This document shows positions 32,772 through 54,142 of a stretch of 64,000 nucleotides of DNA, piece after piece. The position numbers and the translations under genes are program-made. A model generated the notes under the pieces. The model saw nothing but the letters and a program-made list of their open reading frames with translations, ran no database searches and was not told where the DNA came from. The stretch is taken from the IMG/VR virus record IMGVR_UViG_3300009432_000017; one strand, given 5' to 3'. Source of the DNA: an uncultured virus (IMG/VR IMGVR_UViG_3300009432_000017) (Duplodnaviria > Heunggongvirae > Uroviricota > Caudoviricetes > Schitoviridae). Numbering within the stretch: position 1 is the first letter of the stretch; each line of letters starts with the position of its first letter.

Positions 32772-35700
32772 ATGAGTGATCCAAATCTTGTACCTCAAAC
32801 CACCTCCTCCATACTAGAAAACGCCATAAACAGAAATCAACCCAAAGTAGCTAATGCCACCACAAACAAACTTGCCAAACTAAGTAAAGCTGCAGAAGTA
32901 AACTCTCAAAAATTAGCTTCTATTACTGAAGAACCATTAGGTTACGTCGACGCTAATATCGCTGAGCGTATGCGTAGAGCAGTACAGAGTACTGGTGCTT
33001 TTGTTGGTGACAATGACCTTGATACAATATCTGGTGCAACACTTAACACAGTTACTGCTATAGCACTAGATGCAGCGCGTATAGCAGGTAACTTTACATC
33101 TGCTGGTGATAATGAAGAAGCAGTTGGTTACTTAAGTAAATTAAGCGATGCTGCCAGAGATGCCCTATACAAAGAGAAGCAGGGTATAGCCTTAACTCCA
33201 GAAGAGTCTGCTGAACTAGATAAGCCTATCGATATAGGTAAAAAGTCAGATCATCAGTATGGGGGTTTTACAGACACCGCTGAATTAGTTGGTGCCCGCG
33301 AAGTGTATGATAAGTATAAAACAGCACAACAAAAAGCGCAGAAAGATAAGAACTACTACACCGAAGATACTTGGCTCACTAAAGGGTTTAACACACTTAA
33401 AAGAGAGCAGCTTAATCGAGATTTAGCCGGTGCTTGGGACAGCATGGATGATGCAATATCTAACGCTGATGGAGTGTTTGACACTATAAAAGTGGGCGCT
33501 AAGCTGTCTGAGGGTGTAGGTGCCTTATTAGATAACGTAGGTGCAACCGTAGAGTACGCTGCTGAGAGTGCACTAAGTACTGTATTATCTGTAAACCCTT
33601 ATACCGCTATAGCTAATACCTTAGCTTACTCTAGTGATGTAAGGTCACAGAATCTTAGAAACAGTGACGAGGAAACAGAGAGGTTAGTAAGTAAAGCTAA
33701 GCAACGTGAGTTAGGCCAAGAAGCATTATTAGCCGGAGGCTTAGAGTATATAAGTAACGCTACATTAGCTTCAGTCTCTGGATTAAAAGCTTTAAGTAGG
33801 GCTGGCAAAGCTAAAGTACCTTCTAAAGAGGCAGTCAAGAAATCATTATTAAAATCCACTGCAACCCGTGTAGCAAAGACTACAGGAGCTATCGCTCAAG
33901 AAAGTGTAACAGAAGGTATCCAAACAGCCATTGAAGGGGACAACTTTGGTAAAGACTTCAACCTTAAGGAGGATGGTAAAGAAGTATTCACAGGTGCTGC
34001 CATAGGTTTAGGTGCTGCAGGCGTAACTACAATTCCTAGTCAAGCACTAGGTGTAGTAAAAGACGGTACTAAGGGTGCTATACAAGCCACCACTAATAAA
34101 GTAATAGCCAAGGCTAACGCAAATAAAAAGAAAGAAGCTGCCTTAGACTCTGTCGTTGAATCAGGGGATTACAACTCATATGTAGAGGCAGCTCTTAATG
34201 AGGATATTACTACCGATAAAGGTAGTGTTAGATCTGCATTAGATACCATTACTAAACTATATGATGTTGCGAATAATAAAAATACTTTAGATGCAGATAA
34301 ATCTAGTGGACTTTTAAAAGCATACACAAGTACTATCGCGGCCGCTTTTGAGCAAGAGGATAAGTTATACGCAGAAAGAGATAGGACTACTGACCCTAAA
34401 AAGATTAAAGAAATTAATGAAAAGATAGGGGTACTTCAAGACGTTATAGAAAATAATGATCTTGTAAGAATGCAAGCCAAAGAAGCAGGTTTGATTAAAT
34501 CAATGGACACCGTTAATAGTATAACGGCCTCAACAGACAGGGACGCAAAGTTTGAGATTGATGCTCAGCGTATCTTTGATACTAATGAGTACAATCCAGG
34601 TGCGTTAAATACGGAACAGATGACTGCATTATTATCGTCAGATAAATGGACATCGCAAGAACGCACACAGCTTGAAGCATCGGCTGAAGTGGTTAAAGCA
34701 CAAGAAGAGTCCAACGCTTTCAAGGAAGAAGGTAAGCTTAAAACAAAGGAGCAAGTACACGGTGAGGTTATTGCCGGTAAGCGTACAGCAAATCCTGAAA
34801 TCCCTAATGTATTTGGGAGTAACAACTATAGGCAGATGGTATTCTCTGCCATAAATGAAGGTAATACTGAAAAAGTAAAAGCAATCCGTGAGAAGTTCCA
34901 GTCTTTTGCTCAAAGACACATAGACAAAGCAGAAGTCTTTAAGACTGCATACGCTCCCTATGCTAGAAGAACAGTAGCTCAATCCAGTAGAGGTAATCCT
35001 GCACCTGAACCAGCAACACAAGCTGAGCTAGATGCTGCCCAATATATTCGTGATAATTACAAGACACTAGCTGGCCCAGGCTTCGAGGTAGTTAATACTT
35101 CTGCTGGCCCAGTGGTTCAGTCTATTCAATTAGAAGCTGCAGTACTTGCTGCTACGTTAGCTGAAGTAGATGTGTCTATAACAAACGGTAAGCGTGAGCC
35201 TGTAGTTACAGAAGAAGTAACCCCTACTAAAGTCGAACTAACTAAAACAGGTAAACATACTCCTAAAGACCAAGTTAAGTCTGATCAAGCTAATAAGTTT
35301 ATAGGTGTTGGTTCAGAGAAGTCTTCTACAAACCAGTATGCTAAAGACTGGGGCGACAATGCTAACACTGGCTCCTATGAAGCTACTGACACCGTATTTA
35401 TTAGTGCAGAGGGTAATCGCAGCAACAGAGTAGATACTGACTTGTCTGAGGTTGATAGAGCCATTACAGCAGGTGCCACTATTATTACTGATACCTCTGG
35501 TCATGGTAATAGTAAATACAATGAAGTAGGTGAAGGAAAGTTACAAGCCTACTTAACCAGTAAGGGTTACACGGCTAAACAGGAGACTGTTGATGGACAT
35601 TCTTTTAATAAATGGAACAAAGTTACCCCAACAGAAAATAATGTCACTGAAGTCGTTACAGAGCCACCTGCTACGCAGGAGCCTCAAGAACAAGTAGAGG

Positions 35701-38700
35701 AAGTAGTTGCTGAGCCGCAGGCAGAAGCAACTGTAGAAGGTGATGTAGAACCGGAACCATCTATTATTAATGACACTGTTGTAGAGCCAGAACAAACAGA
35801 AGCTGCTACTAAGTTAGAAGAGGTCACTGGTAGGATTACTGCACTCAATGATCAAGTGGCTGCCATCGATGAACAACTCTCCAATGATAATGCATCACAG
35901 CGTCGTAGGGATGCCATTATAGCTCTTGGTTTAAACAGTAATAGTTTGACCGATGCAGATAAGAAAGCTGTCCGTGCAAAAGTAGATGAAACAAAAAGAA
36001 GTCTTCTTGATGATAAGAAGAAACTTAATAAAGAAATAGAAACAATCACTAAGAAAGAACTAGCCCAGGCTGAAGCAGCAGTGGTTAGTGAAACGTTTGC
36101 TGATGATACCGAAGGTTATACGGATAAAGCGCGAGAAACCATTCGTAATATTATCCGTGCTGGCTTAGAAGTTGAAGGTGTTAAGGGTCTTTTCAAAGCA
36201 GCGGAAGGTGATAAAGAAGCTACTAAAGATGTTCACAGTAAGCTTAAAGAAGCTACTGCAAAGGTTAAAAAGCTTAGGTCTGATCTAAAGGTATTATTAG
36301 GCACAGCAGAGAAGTTCAGTGCTGCACAAGAAATAATGGATGGCTACTCAGATACTAAGTTTGGCCGTTGGTTCCAAGTAGGTAAGCCAAAGGGTGTAAT
36401 AGGTAATGTACAAGGCGTAATAGCTAGGCTTAAAGTATTACCAGAGCTTGCTTTAGCTTACGCCCAGTCAGAGTTTATTATGTCTCCTCGTAAGAGTGCG
36501 GCTATAAAAGATTTCGTTGGTTTTGCTGAAACATTCTCTAAAGTACTTAATGACCTGTCGCCTCTAAATGTATTAGACATACATGTGCATAACCGTATGA
36601 ATGCGGCGTTCTTAAAAGATGGAAAACTTACTGATTCTGCATTAGCTGCTATGTCTGCTGCTGCATATAGCTTCTTGGCTTTTGAAGCCAAAGGTACTAT
36701 TTACCCGAGCCCTACTGACATGGCTAGCTTACTTGGTTTACCAGATAAGGACAGCGTAGGTTCAAGCGATTACATTAATCACAGTGACATGGGTGTTAGT
36801 CGTATCAGGCTTGCCAGTGGGATAGGGAGAGATATAGCAGGTGCACTTGGCATAGACTACAACCCAGAAACAACCAATGCGGATAAGCAGTCTGAGCTTC
36901 ATACTGCACTGGGTAACTTTGTTCTTGGTGCTTTACAGCATAAAGGCTTCGTAGAGTTACACCAAAAGACAGTTCAATCTACTTTGAAAACCAAAAATGG
37001 TAAGCCACTTAAGAAAGGCGAGAAAGGAGATGTAGTAGACAGATACCTCACAGGTGTGCGGGTAGCTACTTTGGAAGATGGTAAGGAAATGATACCTACC
37101 GTACAAAGTAAAATTGACATCAATGAAGACACTGACCGGGTCGTAGGAGAGTTACTTAATCCAAGTAAAGCTGCTACAGCTCCTAGCCTAGCTCCTGTAT
37201 TAACCACAGCAGACAAGTTAAAGAACACTGTACGAAACGTAGCTGACACAGTCAGTAAGATGCTTTTGCAAGCCCAGGCGAAGCCGTGGGGCTTGTCAGA
37301 ACAAACAGACAATATCATGCAGTTATTTGATGGTGCCCAACTTGATAAGGTACTAGGTCTAGTTAGTAAAGAAGATTTAGCTAAGATGACAGAAGGTAAT
37401 CGAAAGACGCATCTTGCTAAAAACTCAGCAATACAGAAGGACTGGGATAACCTACAAAGTTACCGAAACAGCTTGAAAGGGACTAAGAAGGGTTTAGCTA
37501 CTCCATTCTACTTTACCTATGCACCTTGGAAAAACCTACGTGTGGGTATAGCAAACACATTGGTTAACCCCCAATCCTCTAAAATAGTAAGGGGATTAGT
37601 TGGCTTAAAAAAATGGAAAACTGAAGTAAGTCTTAATGACCAAGTTATGCAGGACAACTTCTTATATGGTATTGCCCAAGGACTAGACTTTAAAGTTAAA
37701 GGTCTTGGTGCAGACAAGTTGACTATGCCTACGCTACTTGCAGCTTTAACTAAAGAGCTAAATATAAGTGAACTGGATGGCGTTACTAAGCTTGAAGAGA
37801 ATAATGAAACCCCTCTTTTTGTAGAGGCAGCTCAAGCTATACATATGATTAACTCTGATGCTGATATTAGTACTGAAGATATGGCTTCATCCAGGGAAGT
37901 AATAGTGAGGGCCATAGAGAAAGCTGGGGAGAATACCCACACATTACTCGCACTTACTAATCTAGGAAGATTCTTGGATGCTAAGAAGAATGGCAAAAAG
38001 TCTTTTACTTCTGATATCTGGATTGAGCTAGATGGTATTACTAATGGACCAGCCATTGGTTTAATACAATTTGGTAACCACGACATGGCAGGTCTTTTAG
38101 AAAAAGCAGGTGTCTACTCTGATGAACGTCGCTCTAATGGTGAGTTCAAGGAAAGTGGTGAGAATGATATGTATGAGACTCTAAAAGAGGAGTGGAGTTC
38201 TAGTATCAGCGCAATGATGACAACAGCTAAAGCTAATAACGATGTTGGAATAATTAACGGGTTAAATGCAATAAAGCATTTTATGGGTAGCATTGTAAGA
38301 AGCACTGCTAAAGGTCCACTCATGACTAATGTGTATGGTGCTGGATTGGGAGGCATACTTGATGACTTCGGTGAGTCATTACTTGAAAGCATCAATACTA
38401 AAATAGAAGAAGTTGTTAACGACGATAGCAAGACCACTACTCAAAAGAATAAAGAGTTAGCTAAGATTAATAAGTTCATTAGCTACTTATCAGGTAGCAG
38501 GGATAACTTGGTTTTAAACGGTGACCCTAAATTCTTACTTACTAAAGAAGGTGCGCTTAACTTTAAGACACAGGCTGCAATAAAGAATGCTGCTGGCGGT
38601 TTGCACTATGAGTCACTAGGTAATGCAATAGATAGTATGTTTGAAGGATTCAAAGAGAACAGAGCAGAGTACAACGGTGCAATGCAATCTATGAATGAAG

Positions 38701-41700
38701 CATTCATTATAGCATACAAAGAAATGGTGGCTAAGAAGACACAGGAACTCACTGAAAGCGGTAGTATGCAAAAGGGTGACTATCTACCGCAAGTTGAGAT
38801 AGACAAGATCATAGAGCTACTGCAGCCGCTTATGCCCGCAACTCAAATATCTTTTTCTGATAACGCTAATGAGCAACTACAAGTCAGTAAGACTGAGATG
38901 GTTACTAGGAATCCAGGTGATAAGAAGAAAGGTATTAAACGCCAGGGTGACGTAGTAACACAATTCTCTAAGCCGCTGAACAATAATGGTAGCTCTACAT
39001 TAACCAACGCACCAACCACAGTAAGTTTTGTAGAGTACATTGCTTCAGGTGCTGCTATACAGTTTATTCACTCTATCGATGCAACCATAGCTCTGAAAAT
39101 ATTTACCAAGTATGACGTACTTAACGTATTTGACGGTTTCCCTTCAAGTGTAGAGAACGTTGCTGAGGTGGCTAAAGCACTTAACGAAGCCATGCATGAC
39201 TTAATGAATGAGCGCCATGTCTACCGTGAGTTAGCAGAGACATTAGAAAAGTCACAAGAAGCACTTGCACAACTTGTAGAGGGTGGGCACATATCACCTA
39301 ATAAGAAAATAGTTACTTTATTGGCAGGAGCCAGAAACAAAGTAATGCTTGTAGAGGTTATGACTGAGAAGCCAATACAAGAATTTAAGGACAGTATCGA
39401 GCATGTTAATCACTACAGCTTTGAAGGTGCTGGTTTTGAAACTCCACTGGGTAAATCTAATCGTGAGAAGCGTGAAGCTAATGATCAGAGGGGTCCAGTT
39501 ATTGCTACTATTCCTGTTACCCCTACACCAGTTACTGAGAGTAACCCTTGGGGCAAACTAGGTAGAAAGTCTGCTACCCAGTTTAGTACTACAGTTGCTA
39601 ATTTTGATAATGTGGTAGACCTGTTTGAGCACATAAAAGACAACTTTGCGGTGGGTAACATTGATGTACTGGGTACACTAATTAATGACCTATTACCATT
39701 GGTTTCAAAAGACTTGAAGCTTGTTGTTATAAATAAAGACACACCTTACGACCCAAGACTAGAAGCACTAGTTGGTTCCAAAGGTGGGTACGTTGCAGAA
39801 ACTAATACTATCTATTTAAAGTCTACAGACTTTGTAGTAAATGGTATGACCCCTGAAACTGTAGCCCATGAAGTGCTGCACGGTATGACCTCAAAGCTAA
39901 TAAATGAAGTAAGCGGGGAAGTTAAATCGGGTAAGTCACCACGTAACCCTGCAGCACATCAAGCGGTTAAAGAGCTGCAAGCTTTACTTATTAAGACTCG
40001 CAAACTTCTAGGTAACAAAGCTACTACTAATATGCGTAGAGGGCCACTGTCTAACGTTAAAGAGTTTGTTGCGTATGGGTTAACTAACCCAGAGTTCAGG
40101 GAAACAATCCAGGGATTAGAACTAAAGAGTAGTGGTAGTAAAGTAGCCACTGTGCTGAATGCTTTCGTTAAGTCCATTAATAAACTTATCTTTGGCAGAA
40201 CCAACGCTGCTAGAAATAATGTATTAAGTGAAGTACTTCAACTGACTAATACAATCATTGCAGAGCAAGCAGTTACTAATCCCACTGGTTTAAATAACGA
40301 GATAGACCTGCAGCGTATAGAGCGTATGACATCAGAAGAGATGTTAAACGCCTTGGATAAAGGAAACCGTTCAGACGAGCACATAGACCACATCACCACT
40401 ATACAAACCAACCTTGTAAACAGTATTGCCGGTGTGGAGGGCGCAGACCTCCGCAACGCAGAGGAGAACCTTGGTGACGAAGTAGACACTTACCTAGAGA
40501 GTTTAGCCACTAACAAAGGATCGTTCGTTAGCACCATTCACAGGCTGTTTAAGATGACTGCACAGGAAGCGTATGTGGCAGAACAGCTTGAAGCAGTGTT
40601 TGAGGGTGACCTATTGGCAGGTAGTAATGCCATGAACCATGTTCAGAGACTATGGGAACAAGCCAAGCAGTTGCCAGTAGAAGCTTTCTTGGATCACCCG
40701 TCACAAGTAAACAACCGTCATGCTATGAAATTAGCTGTAGCTAGACGTAAGTTTATGTTTGATGTGAAAGCCAATAAGGTAAGTGTCGATTACAGTGAGG
40801 GTGCTGGTAGGGCTACTGTCGAGAGTAAATCAGATTACCGGAAACGGTTTGCAATATTGGCTTCAACCCATGCACCGCTTAGAGCAGAACTGGCCAAGCT
40901 AGACGGTACAAGGGTAGCGAGTAGTAAAGTAGAAAGTAGCTTTATGAAGCAACTATCTATTGCATTGGGTGCAGTAATTGAGCACATACGTTCAATCTTT
41001 GAAGAAAGGGTAATTGCTACTGGTGCCTTAAGTGCACAGATGGATAGTGTGTTAAAGAACGTTGCTACTGTTAACCGTAAGAAGCGTCGTAGAATAGCGA
41101 GTGGCCCTGACTTATTTACTAAGACACAGGACTACTTGGATAGCGCAGGTAGAAAGCTTTTTGCTAAAGCAGCCAGCAAGATGAATGTCGAGGGAACCAG
41201 AAATAGTGATAACAAGTTTGTATCGCTTGCAGGGAACATATTAGATATTGTCTCGAATGATAAGGGCCAAATCCTTATTGATACTATCTATGACTTCTCT
41301 TCTACAGTAACTAAGTCACGCCACAGTCTCATACTCAACATAGTTGAAGAGATGCGTGGTGAGACTCCTAATAACAGTAGGCTAATGCAGTTACTGCGTT
41401 GGGCTAATAGAGACAATGAGCAGCAGCGTAGGTTTGTTAAAGAGCGTGTATCTGAAATAGTGAGCAAGAGCTTTAGTAGCAAACTAGAAGATGCTGAGCA
41501 GACAGCTTTAACAAAAGTGTTTGTACAGGGAGATCTAGAAAGTTTACTTGATGAGTTTGGTTTGGGCGGAATAGAAACATTCCTAACAGACAATGCGACA
41601 TTAGCTGCCGAGATAGTGCGGATTGAAGGGGAGCTTAAAAACTTAACTGAAGGTAAGCATGAATACTACGCCAACCAAGCTGAGGCTTTGGGCAAGTACA

Positions 41701-43916
41701 TGATTACTAATAGTGCAAGTTTTAAGGACATGCCTAAGAATGCATTCAGTATTTCTACTATGCCGGGTACTGGAGTAAGAGTAAGCGGTGTAACAGCGAA
41801 GTCTGCAGAGTCTTTGATAGACACATTGGCTTCATTACAAGCTATTACCTTTATGGAGAAAGGGGATAAGCAACTAGCCGTTGAAGTACTACGAACTGAG
41901 AACAACCGTACAGACGTAGGCAATGGCGTTGACTTCACCCTTAAGCAGCACAGGGCTCTTAAGAAAGAATCGCTGGCTAGAAACTTCATTGGTTCAGAAA
42001 GACTAATGACAAAGGGCTACGTGCACGAAATCACAAACCATAATCTTACAGTTAAATGGGCACTTGCTGGTACGGTAGAAAGTGAACGCTTATTGGCACA
42101 GGGCTACAAAGCGAAGCTTACAGACATCAAGCGTGACAAAGATGACCATGAGCCAAACGCTACTATGTATGTCATAGAAGATGGTGGTATGGCTCAGTAT
42201 CTTACTGGCATGTTCTCTTTTACTGCTAAGAGTACAAAGGGTAAAACCTTTGACAAATCAGCAAAAGAGGTTGGAAGTACCAATACGACTATGTCTTATA
42301 ATGGCGATCTCACCAGATTAAAGAGAGCCGGTAGCACAGAGAACCGTATGTTATTAAACCAACGTGTTCATGCTAGGGATATGGATTCACCCAGCCTGTT
42401 AGCTGTCTACAACCCATCAGGTAACGTAGTTACTTATCGTTATGAGATGAGTGAAAGAGTTCGTGAAGATGTGTTAGAAAAGAACTACAAGCTGTCTGAT
42501 GTACTGGGTGGCCTAGCAGGAAGCATAGTAGATAAAGAAACCACTGAGACTATCAACGTACAAGTTATCGATATCTTGAATGACCAATATACTAACGAAA
42601 GTATTGGTCGACAGAGTAACTATGTAAAAATTAGTGCTAACTCTCCTGAACCAGAAATAAAAGAAATCTGGGACATGATGCCTTACGATGCTAGGCAGTA
42701 TGCGAGAGAAACATTTGGTGGTACAGAGCCTCATATCATGATCCGCAAAGAGCATATGAACTTAGTGTTCGGTTACCGTAAGTCAAGTATAGCTAACTTA
42801 TGGGATGGTCGTTTCGATGGTCGTACTATGTTTGATCACATCAGTGATAATGAATTTGGTTTGCTTACACAGCACGCAGTAAAGAATTCTTTAGATATGG
42901 CATTAGGGCCAATCTTTGGTGCACAAGTGGCCAATAAGTTACGTACCGCTGAAGACGCACACAAGATGCTTATTGCCATGGTGAAGGACACGTTTGTTGT
43001 AAAAAATATATTTACTACTACGACTAACATTATGAGTAATGCTGCTCTACTTAGTTTATCTGGTGTACCTATCAGGCACATTATCCGTGACCAAGCAGTA
43101 GCCTGGAAGGGCGCCCAAGACTACAACGAGCACAAGAAAGAGTTGACTGAGCTACAGAATAATATTCAAGTACTACAGCCAACAGGTAAAACGCTTTCTG
43201 ATATGCAAAGTAGGATAAATGAGCTAAACCATAGAATGTCATCTAATCCCGTTAGCGAGCTAATGGAAGCCGGTATGTTCCAAACTATTGTTGAAGATAT
43301 TGATGCCACCATTGACCCTTACTCGTACAAGAGTAAGTTAATGAGACAAGTGGGTAAAAGAGTAGACAACGTATTAAACAAGAAAGATGCTGATGGTAAC
43401 GTTACTAATGTTGAAACTAACTTTGGTAAGAATGTCAAAGCTTTCGGTAAAAACCTGTTTATAACTCAAGATACTAAGCTGTATAAATTCATTAACCATC
43501 CTATACAGATGTCAGATTTTGCAGCTAGGTACACACAGTTCAAGTATTTAACGGAAACCAAAACAGAGAAGCTAAGTAAAAAGGATGCTTTTAAAACTAT
43601 CTCAGAAAACTTCATACAGTACGATGCGCCTACTAATAAGCTAATACAGTACATGAATGAGGTTGGCTTAATGATGTTTACTAAGTACACGCTAAGGATA
43701 ATGAAGCCAGTATTTAACTTACTTGCTGAGCGTCCTGCTACTGCGTTACTTAATATGACAGCTCAAAGTATAGCTGGGTTTACGAGTCCTATTGACTCAG
43801 TAGGGTTGGGTAACTTGTTGGGTAGGTTTGTTAATCCATGGGAGAGTATGATCAACGCTCCTGATGAAATAGCAACAATCAATGCAATCTTACATACGTT
43901 AGGTATTAAGCAGTAA
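32772..43916 (+). CDS. Virion-encapsidated RNA polymerase (N4 gp50-like), 3714 aa
   Basis: T7-like motifs ELDGITNG (A), RSTAKGPLMTNVYG (B), LNVFDG (C); no Cys seen, as in N4 vRNAP; C-terminal QMSDFAARY and GLMMFTKY. Confidence 0.97.
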   Translation: MSDPNLVPQTTSSILENAINRNQPKVANATTNKLAKLSKAAEVNSQKLASITEEPLGYVDANIAERMRRAVQSTGAFVGDNDLDTISGATLNTVTAIALDAARIAGNFTSAGDNEEAVGYLSKLSDAARDALYKEKQGIALTPEESAELDKPIDIGKKSDHQYGGFTDTAELVGAREVYDKYKTAQQKAQKDKNYYTEDTWLTKGFNTLKREQLNRDLAGAWDSMDDAISNADGVFDTIKVGAKLSEGVGALLDNVGATVEYAAESALSTVLSVNPYTAIANTLAYSSDVRSQNLRNSDEETERLVSKAKQRELGQEALLAGGLEYISNATLASVSGLKALSRAGKAKVPSKEAVKKSLLKSTATRVAKTTGAIAQESVTEGIQTAIEGDNFGKDFNLKEDGKEVFTGAAIGLGAAGVTTIPSQALGVVKDGTKGAIQATTNKVIAKANANKKKEAALDSVVESGDYNSYVEAALNEDITTDKGSVRSALDTITKLYDVANNKNTLDADKSSGLLKAYTSTIAAAFEQEDKLYAERDRTTDPKKIKEINEKIGVLQDVIENNDLVRMQAKEAGLIKSMDTVNSITASTDRDAKFEIDAQRIFDTNEYNPGALNTEQMTALLSSDKWTSQERTQLEASAEVVKAQEESNAFKEEGKLKTKEQVHGEVIAGKRTANPEIPNVFGSNNYRQMVFSAINEGNTEKVKAIREKFQSFAQRHIDKAEVFKTAYAPYARRTVAQSSRGNPAPEPATQAELDAAQYIRDNYKTLAGPGFEVVNTSAGPVVQSIQLEAAVLAATLAEVDVSITNGKREPVVTEEVTPTKVELTKTGKHTPKDQVKSDQANKFIGVGSEKSSTNQYAKDWGDNANTGSYEATDTVFISAEGNRSNRVDTDLSEVDRAITAGATIITDTSGHGNSKYNEVGEGKLQAYLTSKGYTAKQETVDGHSFNKWNKVTPTENNVTEVVTEPPATQEPQEQVEEVVAEPQAEATVEGDVEPEPSIINDTVVEPEQTEAATKLEEVTGRITALNDQVAAIDEQLSNDNASQRRRDAIIALGLNSNSLTDADKKAVRAKVDETKRSLLDDKKKLNKEIETITKKELAQAEAAVVSETFADDTEGYTDKARETIRNIIRAGLEVEGVKGLFKAAEGDKEATKDVHSKLKEATAKVKKLRSDLKVLLGTAEKFSAAQEIMDGYSDTKFGRWFQVGKPKGVIGNVQGVIARLKVLPELALAYAQSEFIMSPRKSAAIKDFVGFAETFSKVLNDLSPLNVLDIHVHNRMNAAFLKDGKLTDSALAAMSAAAYSFLAFEAKGTIYPSPTDMASLLGLPDKDSVGSSDYINHSDMGVSRIRLASGIGRDIAGALGIDYNPETTNADKQSELHTALGNFVLGALQHKGFVELHQKTVQSTLKTKNGKPLKKGEKGDVVDRYLTGVRVATLEDGKEMIPTVQSKIDINEDTDRVVGELLNPSKAATAPSLAPVLTTADKLKNTVRNVADTVSKMLLQAQAKPWGLSEQTDNIMQLFDGAQLDKVLGLVSKEDLAKMTEGNRKTHLAKNSAIQKDWDNLQSYRNSLKGTKKGLATPFYFTYAPWKNLRVGIANTLVNPQSSKIVRGLVGLKKWKTEVSLNDQVMQDNFLYGIAQGLDFKVKGLGADKLTMPTLLAALTKELNISELDGVTKLEENNETPLFVEAAQAIHMINSDADISTEDMASSREVIVRAIEKAGENTHTLLALTNLGRFLDAKKNGKKSFTSDIWIELDGITNGPAIGLIQFGNHDMAGLLEKAGVYSDERRSNGEFKESGENDMYETLKEEWSSSISAMMTTAKANNDVGIINGLNAIKHFMGSIVRSTAKGPLMTNVYGAGLGGILDDFGESLLESINTKIEEVVNDDSKTTTQKNKELAKINKFISYLSGSRDNLVLNGDPKFLLTKEGALNFKTQAAIKNAAGGLHYESLGNAIDSMFEGFKENRAEYNGAMQSMNEAFIIAYKEMVAKKTQELTESGSMQKGDYLPQVEIDKIIELLQPLMPATQISFSDNANEQLQVSKTEMVTRNPGDKKKGIKRQGDVVTQFSKPLNNNGSSTLTNAPTTVSFVEYIASGAAIQFIHSIDATIALKIFTKYDVLNVFDGFPSSVENVAEVAKALNEAMHDLMNERHVYRELAETLEKSQEALAQLVEGGHISPNKKIVTLLAGARNKVMLVEVMTEKPIQEFKDSIEHVNHYSFEGAGFETPLGKSNREKREANDQRGPVIATIPVTPTPVTESNPWGKLGRKSATQFSTTVANFDNVVDLFEHIKDNFAVGNIDVLGTLINDLLPLVSKDLKLVVINKDTPYDPRLEALVGSKGGYVAETNTIYLKSTDFVVNGMTPETVAHEVLHGMTSKLINEVSGEVKSGKSPRNPAAHQAVKELQALLIKTRKLLGNKATTNMRRGPLSNVKEFVAYGLTNPEFRETIQGLELKSSGSKVATVLNAFVKSINKLIFGRTNAARNNVLSEVLQLTNTIIAEQAVTNPTGLNNEIDLQRIERMTSEEMLNALDKGNRSDEHIDHITTIQTNLVNSIAGVEGADLRNAEENLGDEVDTYLESLATNKGSFVSTIHRLFKMTAQEAYVAEQLEAVFEGDLLAGSNAMNHVQRLWEQAKQLPVEAFLDHPSQVNNRHAMKLAVARRKFMFDVKANKVSVDYSEGAGRATVESKSDYRKRFAILASTHAPLRAELAKLDGTRVASSKVESSFMKQLSIALGAVIEHIRSIFEERVIATGALSAQMDSVLKNVATVNRKKRRRIASGPDLFTKTQDYLDSAGRKLFAKAASKMNVEGTRNSDNKFVSLAGNILDIVSNDKGQILIDTIYDFSSTVTKSRHSLILNIVEEMRGETPNNSRLMQLLRWANRDNEQQRRFVKERVSEIVSKSFSSKLEDAEQTALTKVFVQGDLESLLDEFGLGGIETFLTDNATLAAEIVRIEGELKNLTEGKHEYYANQAEALGKYMITNSASFKDMPKNAFSISTMPGTGVRVSGVTAKSAESLIDTLASLQAITFMEKGDKQLAVEVLRTENNRTDVGNGVDFTLKQHRALKKESLARNFIGSERLMTKGYVHEITNHNLTVKWALAGTVESERLLAQGYKAKLTDIKRDKDDHEPNATMYVIEDGGMAQYLTGMFSFTAKSTKGKTFDKSAKEVGSTNTTMSYNGDLTRLKRAGSTENRMLLNQRVHARDMDSPSLLAVYNPSGNVVTYRYEMSERVREDVLEKNYKLSDVLGGLAGSIVDKETTETINVQVIDILNDQYTNESIGRQSNYVKISANSPEPEIKEIWDMMPYDARQYARETFGGTEPHIMIRKEHMNLVFGYRKSSIANLWDGRFDGRTMFDHISDNEFGLLTQHAVKNSLDMALGPIFGAQVANKLRTAEDAHKMLIAMVKDTFVVKNIFTTTTNIMSNAALLSLSGVPIRHIIRDQAVAWKGAQDYNEHKKELTELQNNIQVLQPTGKTLSDMQSRINELNHRMSSNPVSELMEAGMFQTIVEDIDATIDPYSYKSKLMRQVGKRVDNVLNKKDADGNVTNVETNFGKNVKAFGKNLFITQDTKLYKFINHPIQMSDFAARYTQFKYLTETKTEKLSKKDAFKTISENFIQYDAPTNKLIQYMNEVGLMMFTKYTLRIMKPVFNLLAERPATALLNMTAQSIAGFTSPIDSVGLGNLLGRFVNPWESMINAPDEIATINAILHTLGIKQ

Positions 43917-51519: not shown

Positions 51520-51715
51520 TATCAACTAATACTATATAAGTAAGTGCAAGTAAGCATACTACGTATACTTACTTGCACAATGCGAGCGCAGCGGAAGCAT
51601 TGTGCTTATTAAGTAATAACTATATAAGTAATAAAAGGGTAAACGTTTACGTAAGTAAACCTAGTTAATTAAGCTTAACTAAATTTAATTAATGGTACAT
51701 ATGTTGGTACATGAT
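51520..51715. other. AT-rich, palindrome-dense origin-like region
   Basis: Overlapping IRs GTGCAAGTAAG/CTTACTTGCAC and GCACAATGC/GCATTGTGC, direct repeat ACTATATAAGTAA twice, palindromes GTAAACGTTTAC and TTAATTAA. Confidence 0.5.
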
Positions 51716-51794
51716 ACCCAATTAGATTAATAATTCTACTAAAATCAGTCTAGTAAACTAACTTTAATAAGTCTGTCTGAGGAATCGAATTAGT

Positions 51795-52025
51795 TTAACT
51801 AGTTAAAACTCTTTCCTCAATCTCAATCATTTTATCTATAAAACGTTTAGCTTCTTCTCTGGTTTTAGAGTTAGGCAATTGCTCACCGGTAACTCTATGG
51901 GTAGATCTAAAAAAATCTATGTGTTCTGGTTTAGGGATTTTTTTAACTACGGCACGATGCTTATTAATATCAAAGTCTGAACCAGGAATGTACTGAGGAA
52001 TTATGTCGTACTTTTTATATCTCAT
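51795..52025 (-). CDS. Small basic hypothetical protein
   Basis: 76-aa ORF, ATG start. Confidence 0.55.
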   Translation of the reverse strand: MRYKKYDIIPQYIPGSDFDINKHRAVVKKIPKPEHIDFFRSTHRVTGEQLPNSKTREEAKRFIDKMIEIEERVLTS

Positions 52026-52209
52026 AAGTACTTATCTAATTTTTTCATGGCTATCAATGTACGGATTGTAAGTAGGGTAAAAACGGACATTTTTTTTCCT
52101 AATTGGTTAAATGATCTGCAGTCAGTCACTATATTGCAAAAAGATCTTGCACAGTGAATGTCGATGTATATAATGCTGCCCACATCAAGAGGTGAGCAGG
52201 AATATCTCT

Positions 52210-52512
52210 TGTTGGTACATATGATGGTATCAGACTTAGTTAGAAAACATAAAGTCCAATTAAAACATATGTTTAAGTAAGGTTTGTGCTGGCGGGTTCC
52301 GCCTCCAATCATTTATACGTGTAGTACCTTTAAAGTAGTTAAACCATTGTTTTACATAATAAATCTACCATTTGAGTAGATTTTTTTATGTCTGGAATTC
52401 GTACGCATTCGCCTAAATCCGCAAAATGTGTTGGTATTTATGTTGGTACATTTCAGAATTGTGGCGCATAGTGGTAAATGTACCAACAAACCTATAATTA
52501 AATGTACCAACA
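52210..52512. mobile_element. attP-like site: arm-type boxes flanking a tRNA-3'-end core
   Basis: TGTTGGTACAT at 52210 and 52441, variants at 52222 and 52429, inverted ATGTACCAACA at 52478 and 52502; core CGGGTTCCGCCTCCA at 52293-52307; directly upstream of the integrase. Confidence 0.8.
52361..52387 (+). terminator. Terminator downstream of the att core
   Basis: AAATCTAC-CATTTGA-GTAGATTT-TTTT. Confidence 0.7.
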
Positions 52513-52534: not shown

Positions 52535-53803
52535 ATGCCCTTAACTAACTTGGCTTTGGCTAACGCCACGCCAAGAGATAAAGATTATAAGCTGTCTGAT
52601 GGGAAAGGACTGTATTTACTGGTTAAGAAGAATGGTAGTAAATACTGGAGATGGTCATATCGACATGATGGTAAGCAACGGACTATGGCCTTGGGTGTTT
52701 ATCCTGAAGTGGGTGCTAAGACAGTTCGTGAACGTCATACTGAATTAAGAGTAATTTTAGCTACTGGCTCAGATCCTCAGGAGCACTCTAAACAAGTAAA
52801 GTTAGATAAAGTCAAACAAAATGAAAAAGGTGTCATGTTCCATGATGTCTTAGACACTTGGTTTGAAGACTGGAAAACTGAGTACCACGGTAAGACTATT
52901 GTGCGTAACAGTGGGATCATAGATAACTGGATCAAACCATTCACCATAGACCTCCAAGCCAAGGATATGAACGGTACTATTGTCATTGGCTTGATACGTA
53001 GGTTAGAAGCCCTTGATAAGCGTCCTACAGCTCATAAGACTTACACTATTCTCAAGCAGATGTTTGCTTGGTGTATTGCAGAGCCCACCATACCTATTGA
53101 CCGTAATTGGGCCATGGACATTGGTGAACTGAGAAAGCCATTATTAGAGAGTCACTACGCAGCTATGGTGACACCTAAAGAGATAGGTGGCCTGTTGCAC
53201 TCGATAGCAACAAGTAGCTCATTCTGGCTTACTAAGCTCGCTATGCGGTTATCATTACATTGGTTTATCAGACCAGGAGAACTCCGTAATCTGAAGTGGA
53301 GTGATGTTAACTGGGACATGGAGTGTGTTCAGATTGATGCCGAAGATATGAAAAAGACTAAAACGGTTCAAGAGCACTGGGTACCTTTAACTAAACAAAC
53401 TAAAGAAATGCTGTTATTCATCAAACACAACGGCTACGCCTCTGTGTTTGTGTTTCCTTCTGTTAGGACCCTTTGTAAACCAATAAGTGAAAATACAGTT
53501 AATACTGCATTAAAAAGTATGGGCTTCAAAGGTAAGCAAACTGCACACGGCCTCAGAGCCACAGCTAGGACACTATTAGAAGAAGAATTAGGTGAGAATG
53601 CTTTATATGTAGAGCATCAGCTAGCGCACGTAGTGCGTGACGCTAATGGTAGAGCTTACAACCGTACTACTATGCTAGATGAGCGCAGAGAGATGCTACA
53701 ACGTTGGTCTAACTACCTAGATGAGTTGGAGTATAAAGCTACTTACGGTATAGTTATCCAATCCAAGTATGAAACTGCATTAAATAAAAAGGAAGTCGAA
53801 TGA
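52535..53803 (+). CDS. int: Tyrosine integrase, P4/IntA-like
   Basis: Arm-binding N-terminus (DGKGLYLLV..GSKYWR..YR..GKQ..MALGVYP), catalytic RPGE, K, HGLR, QLAH, AYNR; AAGGA RBS. Confidence 0.96.
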   Translation: MPLTNLALANATPRDKDYKLSDGKGLYLLVKKNGSKYWRWSYRHDGKQRTMALGVYPEVGAKTVRERHTELRVILATGSDPQEHSKQVKLDKVKQNEKGVMFHDVLDTWFEDWKTEYHGKTIVRNSGIIDNWIKPFTIDLQAKDMNGTIVIGLIRRLEALDKRPTAHKTYTILKQMFAWCIAEPTIPIDRNWAMDIGELRKPLLESHYAAMVTPKEIGGLLHSIATSSSFWLTKLAMRLSLHWFIRPGELRNLKWSDVNWDMECVQIDAEDMKKTKTVQEHWVPLTKQTKEMLLFIKHNGYASVFVFPSVRTLCKPISENTVNTALKSMGFKGKQTAHGLRATARTLLEEELGENALYVEHQLAHVVRDANGRAYNRTTMLDERREMLQRWSNYLDELEYKATYGIVIQSKYETALNKKEVE

Positions 53804-53908: not shown

Positions 53909-54142
53909 TTAATCCCTGGATTGAATACGAGCGTCGACCCATTTCTGTACTTCACTGTCTACCCATCCTACGGCTTTACCAGTTATAGGAACTGGCTTAG
54001 GGAATGAACCTTCCCTAATTAGTTTATGCAGTGTTGTGTGACCAATGCCGGTTACATGAAGTACTTCTGGTTTGCGTAGTAAGCGAGTGAGAGGAATTAC
54101 CTTACCCTCTAAATTATTCTGTGATTCGATTGATTCAAACAT
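53909..54142 (-). CDS. alpA: AlpA-family excisionase / recombination directionality factor
   Basis: LLRKPEVLHVTGIGHTTLHKLIREGSFPKPV.I..KAVGW..SEV..W. Confidence 0.9.
   Translation of the reverse strand: MFESIESQNNLEGKVIPLTRLLRKPEVLHVTGIGHTTLHKLIREGSFPKPVPITGKAVGWVDSEVQKWVDARIQSRD

What the first reader, a model, noticed from the sequence alone, without database searches (positions are those of the whole stretch)
52293..52387. att core looks like a tRNA-Cys 3' end, followed by a replacement terminator
Seen: a GC-rich island CGGGTTCCGCCTCCA in AT-rich DNA. It parses as T-stem 3' strand (CGGG), acceptor 3' strand (TTCCGCC), discriminator T, then CCA. About 55 nt later there is an intrinsic terminator and then int, and an IHF-like AAACAATGGTTTA lies on the minus strand near 52340-52352. 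Established: bacterial tRNA-Cys starts GGC and has U73, and P4-type integrases target tRNA 3' ends and restore them. Inference: attB is a tRNA-Cys beginning GGCGGAA, which would also help identify the host.
Basis: partly seen in the sequence, partly recalled or inferred. Interest (0 to 1): 0.72.

Follow-up and report, generated by a model that had tools for sequence, protein, structure and literature searches.

The report
Phage attachment site targeting cysteine tRNA
This is the docking site by which a marine virus, from a family long thought to only kill its host, can insert itself into a bacterial cysteine-tRNA gene; it carries a spare gene end and stop signal, and probably a spare promoter for the next tRNA gene that the insertion cuts off.

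Summary
Confirmed. The 15-mer (52293-52307) is the attP identity block of an N4-like phage (vRNAP) with a P4-type integrase and an AlpA-type excisionase. A 58%-identical integrase sits in genome G727 on an 8,365-bp element whose attL is an intact tRNA-Cys(GCA) beginning GGCGGAA and whose attR is exactly this 15-mer, followed by tRNA-Leu(TAA); a congener holds the matching empty site. A second attL (L129; integrase identical to one labelled Glaciecola punicea) and a second attP (L128) share exactly the same block. Terminator and IHF-like site hold; arm repeats and a second IHF-like site were missed. The 15-mer alone does not name the host: it ends tRNA-Cys in many gammaproteobacteria; the integrase points to the Alteromonas/Glaciecola group. 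New: a promoter-like site (52147-52174) shaped like the host Gly-Cys-Leu operon promoter lies 118 nt before the core and is kept at G727 attR, facing the displaced tRNA-Leu; 3 of 4 attR sites at this tRNA carry such a site. No junction of this phage itself was found. Ordinary recombination, unusual carrier.

The parts
52293..52307 (+). attP identity block = last 15 nt of host tRNA-Cys(GCA) (T-stem 3' strand minus its first base, acceptor 3' strand, discriminator, CCA)
   Evidence: Identical block at attL/attR of G727, identity extends 0 nt either side; also L128, L129
52361..52387 (+). Intrinsic terminator-like hairpin + T run; ends the restored tRNA transcript at attL (inferred)
   Evidence: Fold z -4.06; homologues with paired stem changes in L128, L129, G727; not called
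52340..52352 (-). IHF-like site, right arm
   Evidence: Same offset (32 nt after core) in 3 of 4 att sites, 0 of 2000 shuffles
52263..52275 (+).
   Evidence: Same offset (17 nt before core) in 3 of 3 att sites at 1-2 mismatches, 0 of 2000 shuffles
52210..52231 (+). Left pair of integrase arm-type repeats (TGTTGGTACA type)
   Evidence: same pair at the same distance in G727 attR
52429..52512 (.). Right arm-type repeats: two forward (52429, 52441), two reverse (52479, 52503), just before int
   Evidence: conserved motifs in L128, L129, G727 attL
51690..51712 (+). Far-left pair of arm-like repeats, role unclear
   Evidence: also in relative L184
52147..52182 (+). Sigma-70 promoter-like site (TTGCAC-16-TATAAT, G+C-rich discriminator) facing the core; proposed replacement promoter for the displaced tRNA-Leu(TAA)
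   Evidence: Kept in L184 and G727 attR; host operon promoter has the same shape in 24 of 24 loci; only such + strand site in the window
52535..53803 (+). P4-type tyrosine integrase, 422 aa
   Evidence: PF13356 + PF22022 + PF00589; R246 K273 H338 R341 H365 Y375 invariant in 12 of 12
53909..54142 (-). AlpA-type excisionase / directionality factor
   Evidence: PF05930 E 1.6e-16; homologues after int in L128, L129, G727
32772..43916 (+). Virion RNA polymerase: marks the carrier as N4-like
   Evidence: phrog_2206, 1335 bits

Best explanation
The stretch is the attP of a temperate (integration-competent) N4-like marine phage. [quoted passage not shown] AlpA directs excision. Likely host: Alteromonas/Glaciecola group. 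Shown: sequence anatomy and mapped junctions in relatives. Inferred: protein binding, crossover point, promoter activity, lysogeny of this phage, host.
For: G727: tRNA-Gly, tRNA-Cys, terminator, 58%-identical Int, AlpA, then after 8,365 bp the 15-mer and tRNA-Leu; attL/attR identity exactly 15 bp. Empty site in congener L294 matches the attR flank at 32 of 33 nt up to tRNA-Leu. L129 attL with Int identical to P0010, labelled Glaciecola punicea. L128 attP, Int 74%, same block. The three family-search hits outside the clade lie at tRNA-Ser or tmRNA. Arm repeats: 5 of 5 exact copies in 64 kb lie in 51702-52512. IHF-like offsets. Promoter. L040 tRNA-Cys is identical to L129's and its PgsA cluster is labelled Alteromonas.
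Against: No attL/attR of this phage: 3 of 3 runs show the site only as attP and no listed loose end lies at the core (14 of 22 shown; X1 may be the source). G727 has no vRNAP, so it is a remnant and no full prophage of this Int clade was seen. L129 lacks the right IHF-like site (5 mismatches). The promoter has a weak -35 (3 of 6), is not called by the stock scan, my scoring rule was set after seeing it, and attR L178 has none. The 15-mer also ends tRNA-Cys in hosts far from Alteromonas (PgsA 44-56%).
Confidence: 0.9

Rival explanations
1. The site is a true attP, but integration is a dead end or rare: the phage is lytic in practice and inserted copies decay, as the 8-kb G727 remnant suggests.
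For: The only fully mapped element of the clade has lost most of the genome and vRNAP. No repressor was identified among 35 window proteins scanned. A listing reports integration without lysogeny in T7-like cyanophages (PMC8776855, title only).
Against: Int catalytic residues, AlpA, arm, IHF-like and terminator sites are all kept across 57-93% divergence; a complete N4-like record classed as provirus has an integrase at one end and the slot's other neighbour at the other (G907).
Confidence: 0.25
2. The promoter-like site serves the phage (a short RNA ending at the terminator, or int expression) and its facing tRNA-Leu after integration is incidental.
For: In attP it would give a ~205-nt RNA to the terminator; leader hairpin z only -1.67. 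L178 attR manages without one. No RNA data.
Against: Two other elements at tRNA-Cys (L023; L298, Int 35% identical) have their own TTGACA-type site 101 and 145 nt before attR, each with tRNA-Leu just after; the L182 attP, which targets the last gene tRNA-Leu, has none in 450 nt. The terminator lies between it and int.
Confidence: 0.25
3. The 15-mer is a chance G+C-rich match, part of the 96-aa ORF 52022-52312, or an N4-type hairpin promoter.
For: 15-mers match by chance: 87 of 94 viral hits and 7 of 17 class-wide hits are not tRNA-derived. The ORF overlaps it. It can form a 5-bp hairpin.
Against: Exact 15-bp attL/attR in G727; ORF has no Pfam or PHROG match and is interrupted in L184; hairpin z -1.57.
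Confidence: 0.02

Closest known systems
P4-type / KplE1 (IntS) recombination module at tRNA 3' ends (PMC2951348, passages)
   Same: tRNA then int in the same orientation; arm sites between core and int start; directionality factor gene uncoupled from int; IHF use.
   Different: Carrier is an N4-like phage; target is tRNA-Cys in mid-operon; Int only about 30% identical to P4 Int; autoregulation untested.
Islander tDNA islands, subsite J (PMC4383910, passages)
   Same: attP holds the 3' tRNA fragment and restores the gene; block starts in the T stem, as for the T/acceptor junction class (1836 of 3919 islands).
   Different: Nothing in mechanism; the crossover itself was not mapped.
Temperate N4-like viruses of Zheng et al. 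(PMC10654107, passages and 3 of 4 supplement files)
   Same: N4-like genomes with integrases (54 with lysogeny genes, 14 marine) and 40 proviral regions.
   Different: Main text has 0 hits for 'attachment' or 'Glaciecola' and 1 for 'tRNA' (host prediction); no att mapping seen. Its Table S4 (external site) was not seen and may list this phage.
HTVC019P-type pelagiphages integrating at tRNA-Cys/Leu (10.1101/410191, passages)
   Same: Marine podophages of a mostly lytic group with 11-46 bp cores in tRNA-Cys and tRNA-Leu.
   Different: SAR11 hosts, cores at the 5' end or middle of tRNA-Cys, experimentally shown.

Membership tests
P4-type tyrosine integrase att system at a tRNA 3' end | Integrase with Arm-DNA-bind_3 + catalytic domain and R-K-H-R-H-Y residues | tested here: met
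P4-type tyrosine integrase att system at a tRNA 3' end | attP block identical to a tRNA 3' end; integration restores the gene and leaves a fragment at attR | tested here: met
   Mapped in relative G727, empty site L294; not mapped for this phage
P4-type tyrosine integrase att system at a tRNA 3' end | Arm-type repeats on both sides of the core | tested here: met
   Sequence repeats conserved; binding not tested
P4-type tyrosine integrase att system at a tRNA 3' end | AlpA/TorI-like directionality factor | tested here: met
   PF05930
P4-type tyrosine integrase att system at a tRNA 3' end | Int- and IHF-dependent recombination, 7-bp crossover | not testable with these tools
   Needs an in vitro or plasmid assay
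KplE1-type autoregulated int | int promoter overlapped by arm sites and repressed by Int | tested here: inconclusive
   A TATAAT lies at 52493-52498 between two arm repeats but no full promoter is called
N4-like phages (Schitoviridae) | Virion RNA polymerase plus N4-type DNA polymerase, terminase, portal, capsid | tested here: met
   PHROG hits; no tree built
Temperate phage | Stable inducible prophage with a repressor switch | tested here: inconclusive
   No junction in 3 runs; no repressor identified; relative G727 is a remnant

The most novel reading that the evidence does not exclude
A marine N4-like lineage integrates into the middle gene of the Gly-Cys-Leu tRNA operon and rescues the cut-off tRNA-Leu(TAA) with a phage-borne mimic of the host's stable-RNA promoter (16-bp spacer, G+C-rich discriminator). 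The host then needs the prophage's attR end, which would explain why the G727 remnant kept both ends while losing most of the genome. Unrelated elements at this tRNA reached the same solution, and N4-like phages swap whole integration modules (three integrase types, neighbouring tRNA targets) in one genome slot.
Probability: 0.55. Interest if true: 0.62.

Novelty: new member of a known kind. Interest (0 to 1): 0.45.

Why it matters
The recombination system is a standard kind. Its value is that it gives base-exact att sites, a target gene and a culturable host group for lysogeny in N4-like phages, reported so far mainly from gene presence (PMC10654107, passages). That makes an open question testable: how a phage that depends on an injected RNA polymerase restarts from a prophage. 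The promoter facing the displaced tRNA-Leu is a simple testable rule for mid-operon tRNA insertions; 4 searches of the held library found no description (listings only), but Williams 2002 was not held and may cover it.

Tried and rejected
No genome is held for the window. ARAGORN finds no tRNA in the window; Rfam gives 10 weak hits, all under gathering score. The integrase scan of genome contigs returned 30 loci, none of the clade (full-length matches 30-39%), and missed G727, so it is not evidence of absence; viral contigs gave only the window's twin L001 and two distant hits. Phage records: best Int 36%. Reads: no attL/attR in X1-X3; X2 and X3 hold relatives at small share, so no habitat claim rests on them. 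PgsA searches of the class sample (1 of 400 at E<=1e-60) and of G384's order did not reach the Alteromonas group; the latter served as a control (0 of 21 tRNA-Cys match). Family search with the Int profile: 4 of 181 at E<=1e-100, only G727 in the clade. A tmRNA reading and an inverted core symmetry (2 of 3 sites only) were dropped. L181's tRNA-like end matches held tRNAs over only 8 nt, and no core was found at the G907 ends. Four look-ups of earlier findings returned nothing. Searches for N4-like att sites or Glaciecola N4-like prophages gave no such paper in listings.

Full report
Observation. The 15-mer lies at 52293-52307 and is unique in the window at up to 2 mismatches. The window has no tRNA. 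The hairpin and T run at 52361-52387 fold at z -4.06 but were not called by the consensus scan. The IHF-like 13-mer is at 52340-52352 on the minus strand; 79 sites of that quality occur in the window, so it needed a conservation test.

Carrier. Of 35 proteins scanned, the 3,714-aa ORF is a virion RNA polymerase, with N4-type terminase, portal, capsid, primase and DNA polymerase. The 422-aa ORF at 52535 is a P4-type integrase and the ORF at 53909-54142 an AlpA-type excisionase. The site lies intact inside phage genes, so the window shows attP. All 5 exact copies of the 10-nt arm-type repeat in 64 kb lie within 51702-52512, on both sides of the core. The integrase has 11 relatives at 57-93% identity, then a gap to 42% or less; two lie on contigs of 74.6 and 76.2 kb, and one is labelled Glaciecola punicea on a 489-kb contig. 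Catalytic residues are invariant in 12 of 12.

The target. L128 (Int 74%) has the same 15-mer in attP form; L129 (Int 58%, identical to the G. punicea protein) has an intact tRNA-Cys(GCA) that begins GGCGGAA and ends in it, followed by terminator, arm repeats and int. Identity between the window and L129 is exactly 15 bp. Genome G727 settles the junctions: tRNA-Gly, tRNA-Cys, terminator, a 58%-identical Int, AlpA and cargo, then 8,365 bp on the bare 15-mer and tRNA-Leu(TAA) 33 nt later; attL/attR identity extends 0 nt on either side. Congener L294 holds the empty site with the same flank. Of 13 element ORFs tested, 7 match the window or its phage relatives (Int, AlpA, SPFH protein, dUTPase, ThyX, phosphoesterase, a 118-aa ORF); G727 has no vRNAP, so I read it as a deleted N4-like prophage (inference). 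The block starts inside the T stem, which fits the T/acceptor junction subsite (PMC4383910, passages); tyrosine integrases need identity over a roughly 7-bp exchange segment within such blocks (PMC10111431, passages). tRNA position names are from recall.

Accessory sites. L129 lacks the right site. The terminator is kept in 4 of 4. The layout tRNA, arm sites, int with a separate directionality gene is that of KplE1 (PMC2951348, passages).

Host. The 15-mer matches 16 of 401 class-wide genomes at 17 places (control 6): 9 tRNA-Cys ends, 1 attR-like fragment, 7 elsewhere. In the order of SeqA-bearing G191 it matches 34 of 301 genomes (control 4); 30 of 30 loci inspected are tRNA-Cys ends, 5 with PgsA 80-88% identical to an Alteromonas PgsA, 21 at 47-55%, 4 without. 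In G727's genus 27 of 37 genomes match (control 0). Named Shewanella, Vibrio, Halomonas and E. coli tRNA-Cys differ by 2-4 nt; 0 of 21 from G384's order match. In viral contigs 6 of 94 hits are intact tRNA-Cys and 1 a fragment; L040's is identical to L129's and its host proteins are labelled Alteromonas. So the core allows many hosts; the two integrated clade members point to the Alteromonas/Glaciecola group (my odds about 0.7).

Beyond the finding. Insertion at tRNA-Cys puts a terminator and the prophage between the operon promoter and tRNA-Leu(TAA). The host promoter is TTGACA-16-TA(G/A)AAT with a G+C-rich discriminator in 24 of 24 loci that include tRNA-Gly. The window carries TTGCAC-16-TATAAT-GCTGCCCA at 52147-52182, 118 nt before the core and facing it; it is kept in L184 and at G727 attR (115 nt) while the DNA around it has diverged. 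Under my rule it is the only such + strand site in 64 kb (one on the minus strand) and arises in 13 and 20 of 5000 resamples of 400 nt; the rule was set after seeing the site, and the -35 is weak. Of 4 attR sites at tRNA-Cys with tRNA-Leu behind them, 3 have an outward site (G727, L023, and L298 of Acidithiobacillus, a 52.7-kb island) and L178 has none; the L182 attP, aimed at tRNA-Leu itself, has none. Activity is untested.

Relatives. Three complete N4-like records (G905, G906, G907; vRNAP in 3 of 3) carry other tyrosine integrases in the same slot, barely alignable to this one. G906 has a 25-nt exact tRNA-Leu(TAA) 3' end there. G907, classed as provirus, has its integrase at one end and the slot's other neighbour at the other.

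Against. No junction of this phage in 3 runs; no intact prophage of the clade; no repressor identified. Integration could be a dead end.

Novelty. Integrase-bearing and proviral N4-like genomes are in print (PMC10654107, passages; Table S4 and one scanned supplement not seen), as is tRNA-Cys integration by marine podophages (10.1101/410191, passages). I found no att mapping for N4-like phages and no account of a replacement promoter in listings; the library is partial and Williams 2002 was not held. Verdict: real, correctly read, a new member of a known kind; interest 0.45.

Noticed in passing
L182:8814-8838 and L181:7482-9270: Other N4-like phages hold different integrases in the same slot; L182's core is the 25-nt 3' end of tRNA-Leu(TAA), the next gene of the same operon; L181 has a tRNA-like end with no good match among 316 held tRNAs.
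   Followed up: partly
G907 (L183, L262-L264): Complete 75-kb N4-like record classed as provirus, integrase at one end; att core not found at the record ends.
   Followed up: partly
window 51544-51578: 16-bp near-perfect inverted repeat upstream of the leftward 145-aa ORF, terminator-like on the minus strand; similar palindromic DNA in the L181 slot.
   Followed up: no
window 51690-51712: A third pair of arm-like repeats 520 bp left of the left arm, kept in L184.
   Followed up: no
L171/L178 (G282:C81 33189-35539): A 2.3-kb islet at tRNA-Cys with a longer identity block reaching the anticodon stem, no integrase seen and no outward promoter.
   Followed up: partly
L128:1550-2005 and L265:2955-3410: A lipoprotein-like ORF follows int in two relatives but not in the window; no Pfam or PHROG match.
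   Followed up: no
L235-L243, L245, L251: Several genomes have the Gly-Cys-Leu tRNA cluster duplicated or expanded, giving two attB copies.
   Followed up: no
L004, L052, L094: Viral contigs in which the 15-mer lies inside tandem repeats, unrelated to tRNA.
   Followed up: no
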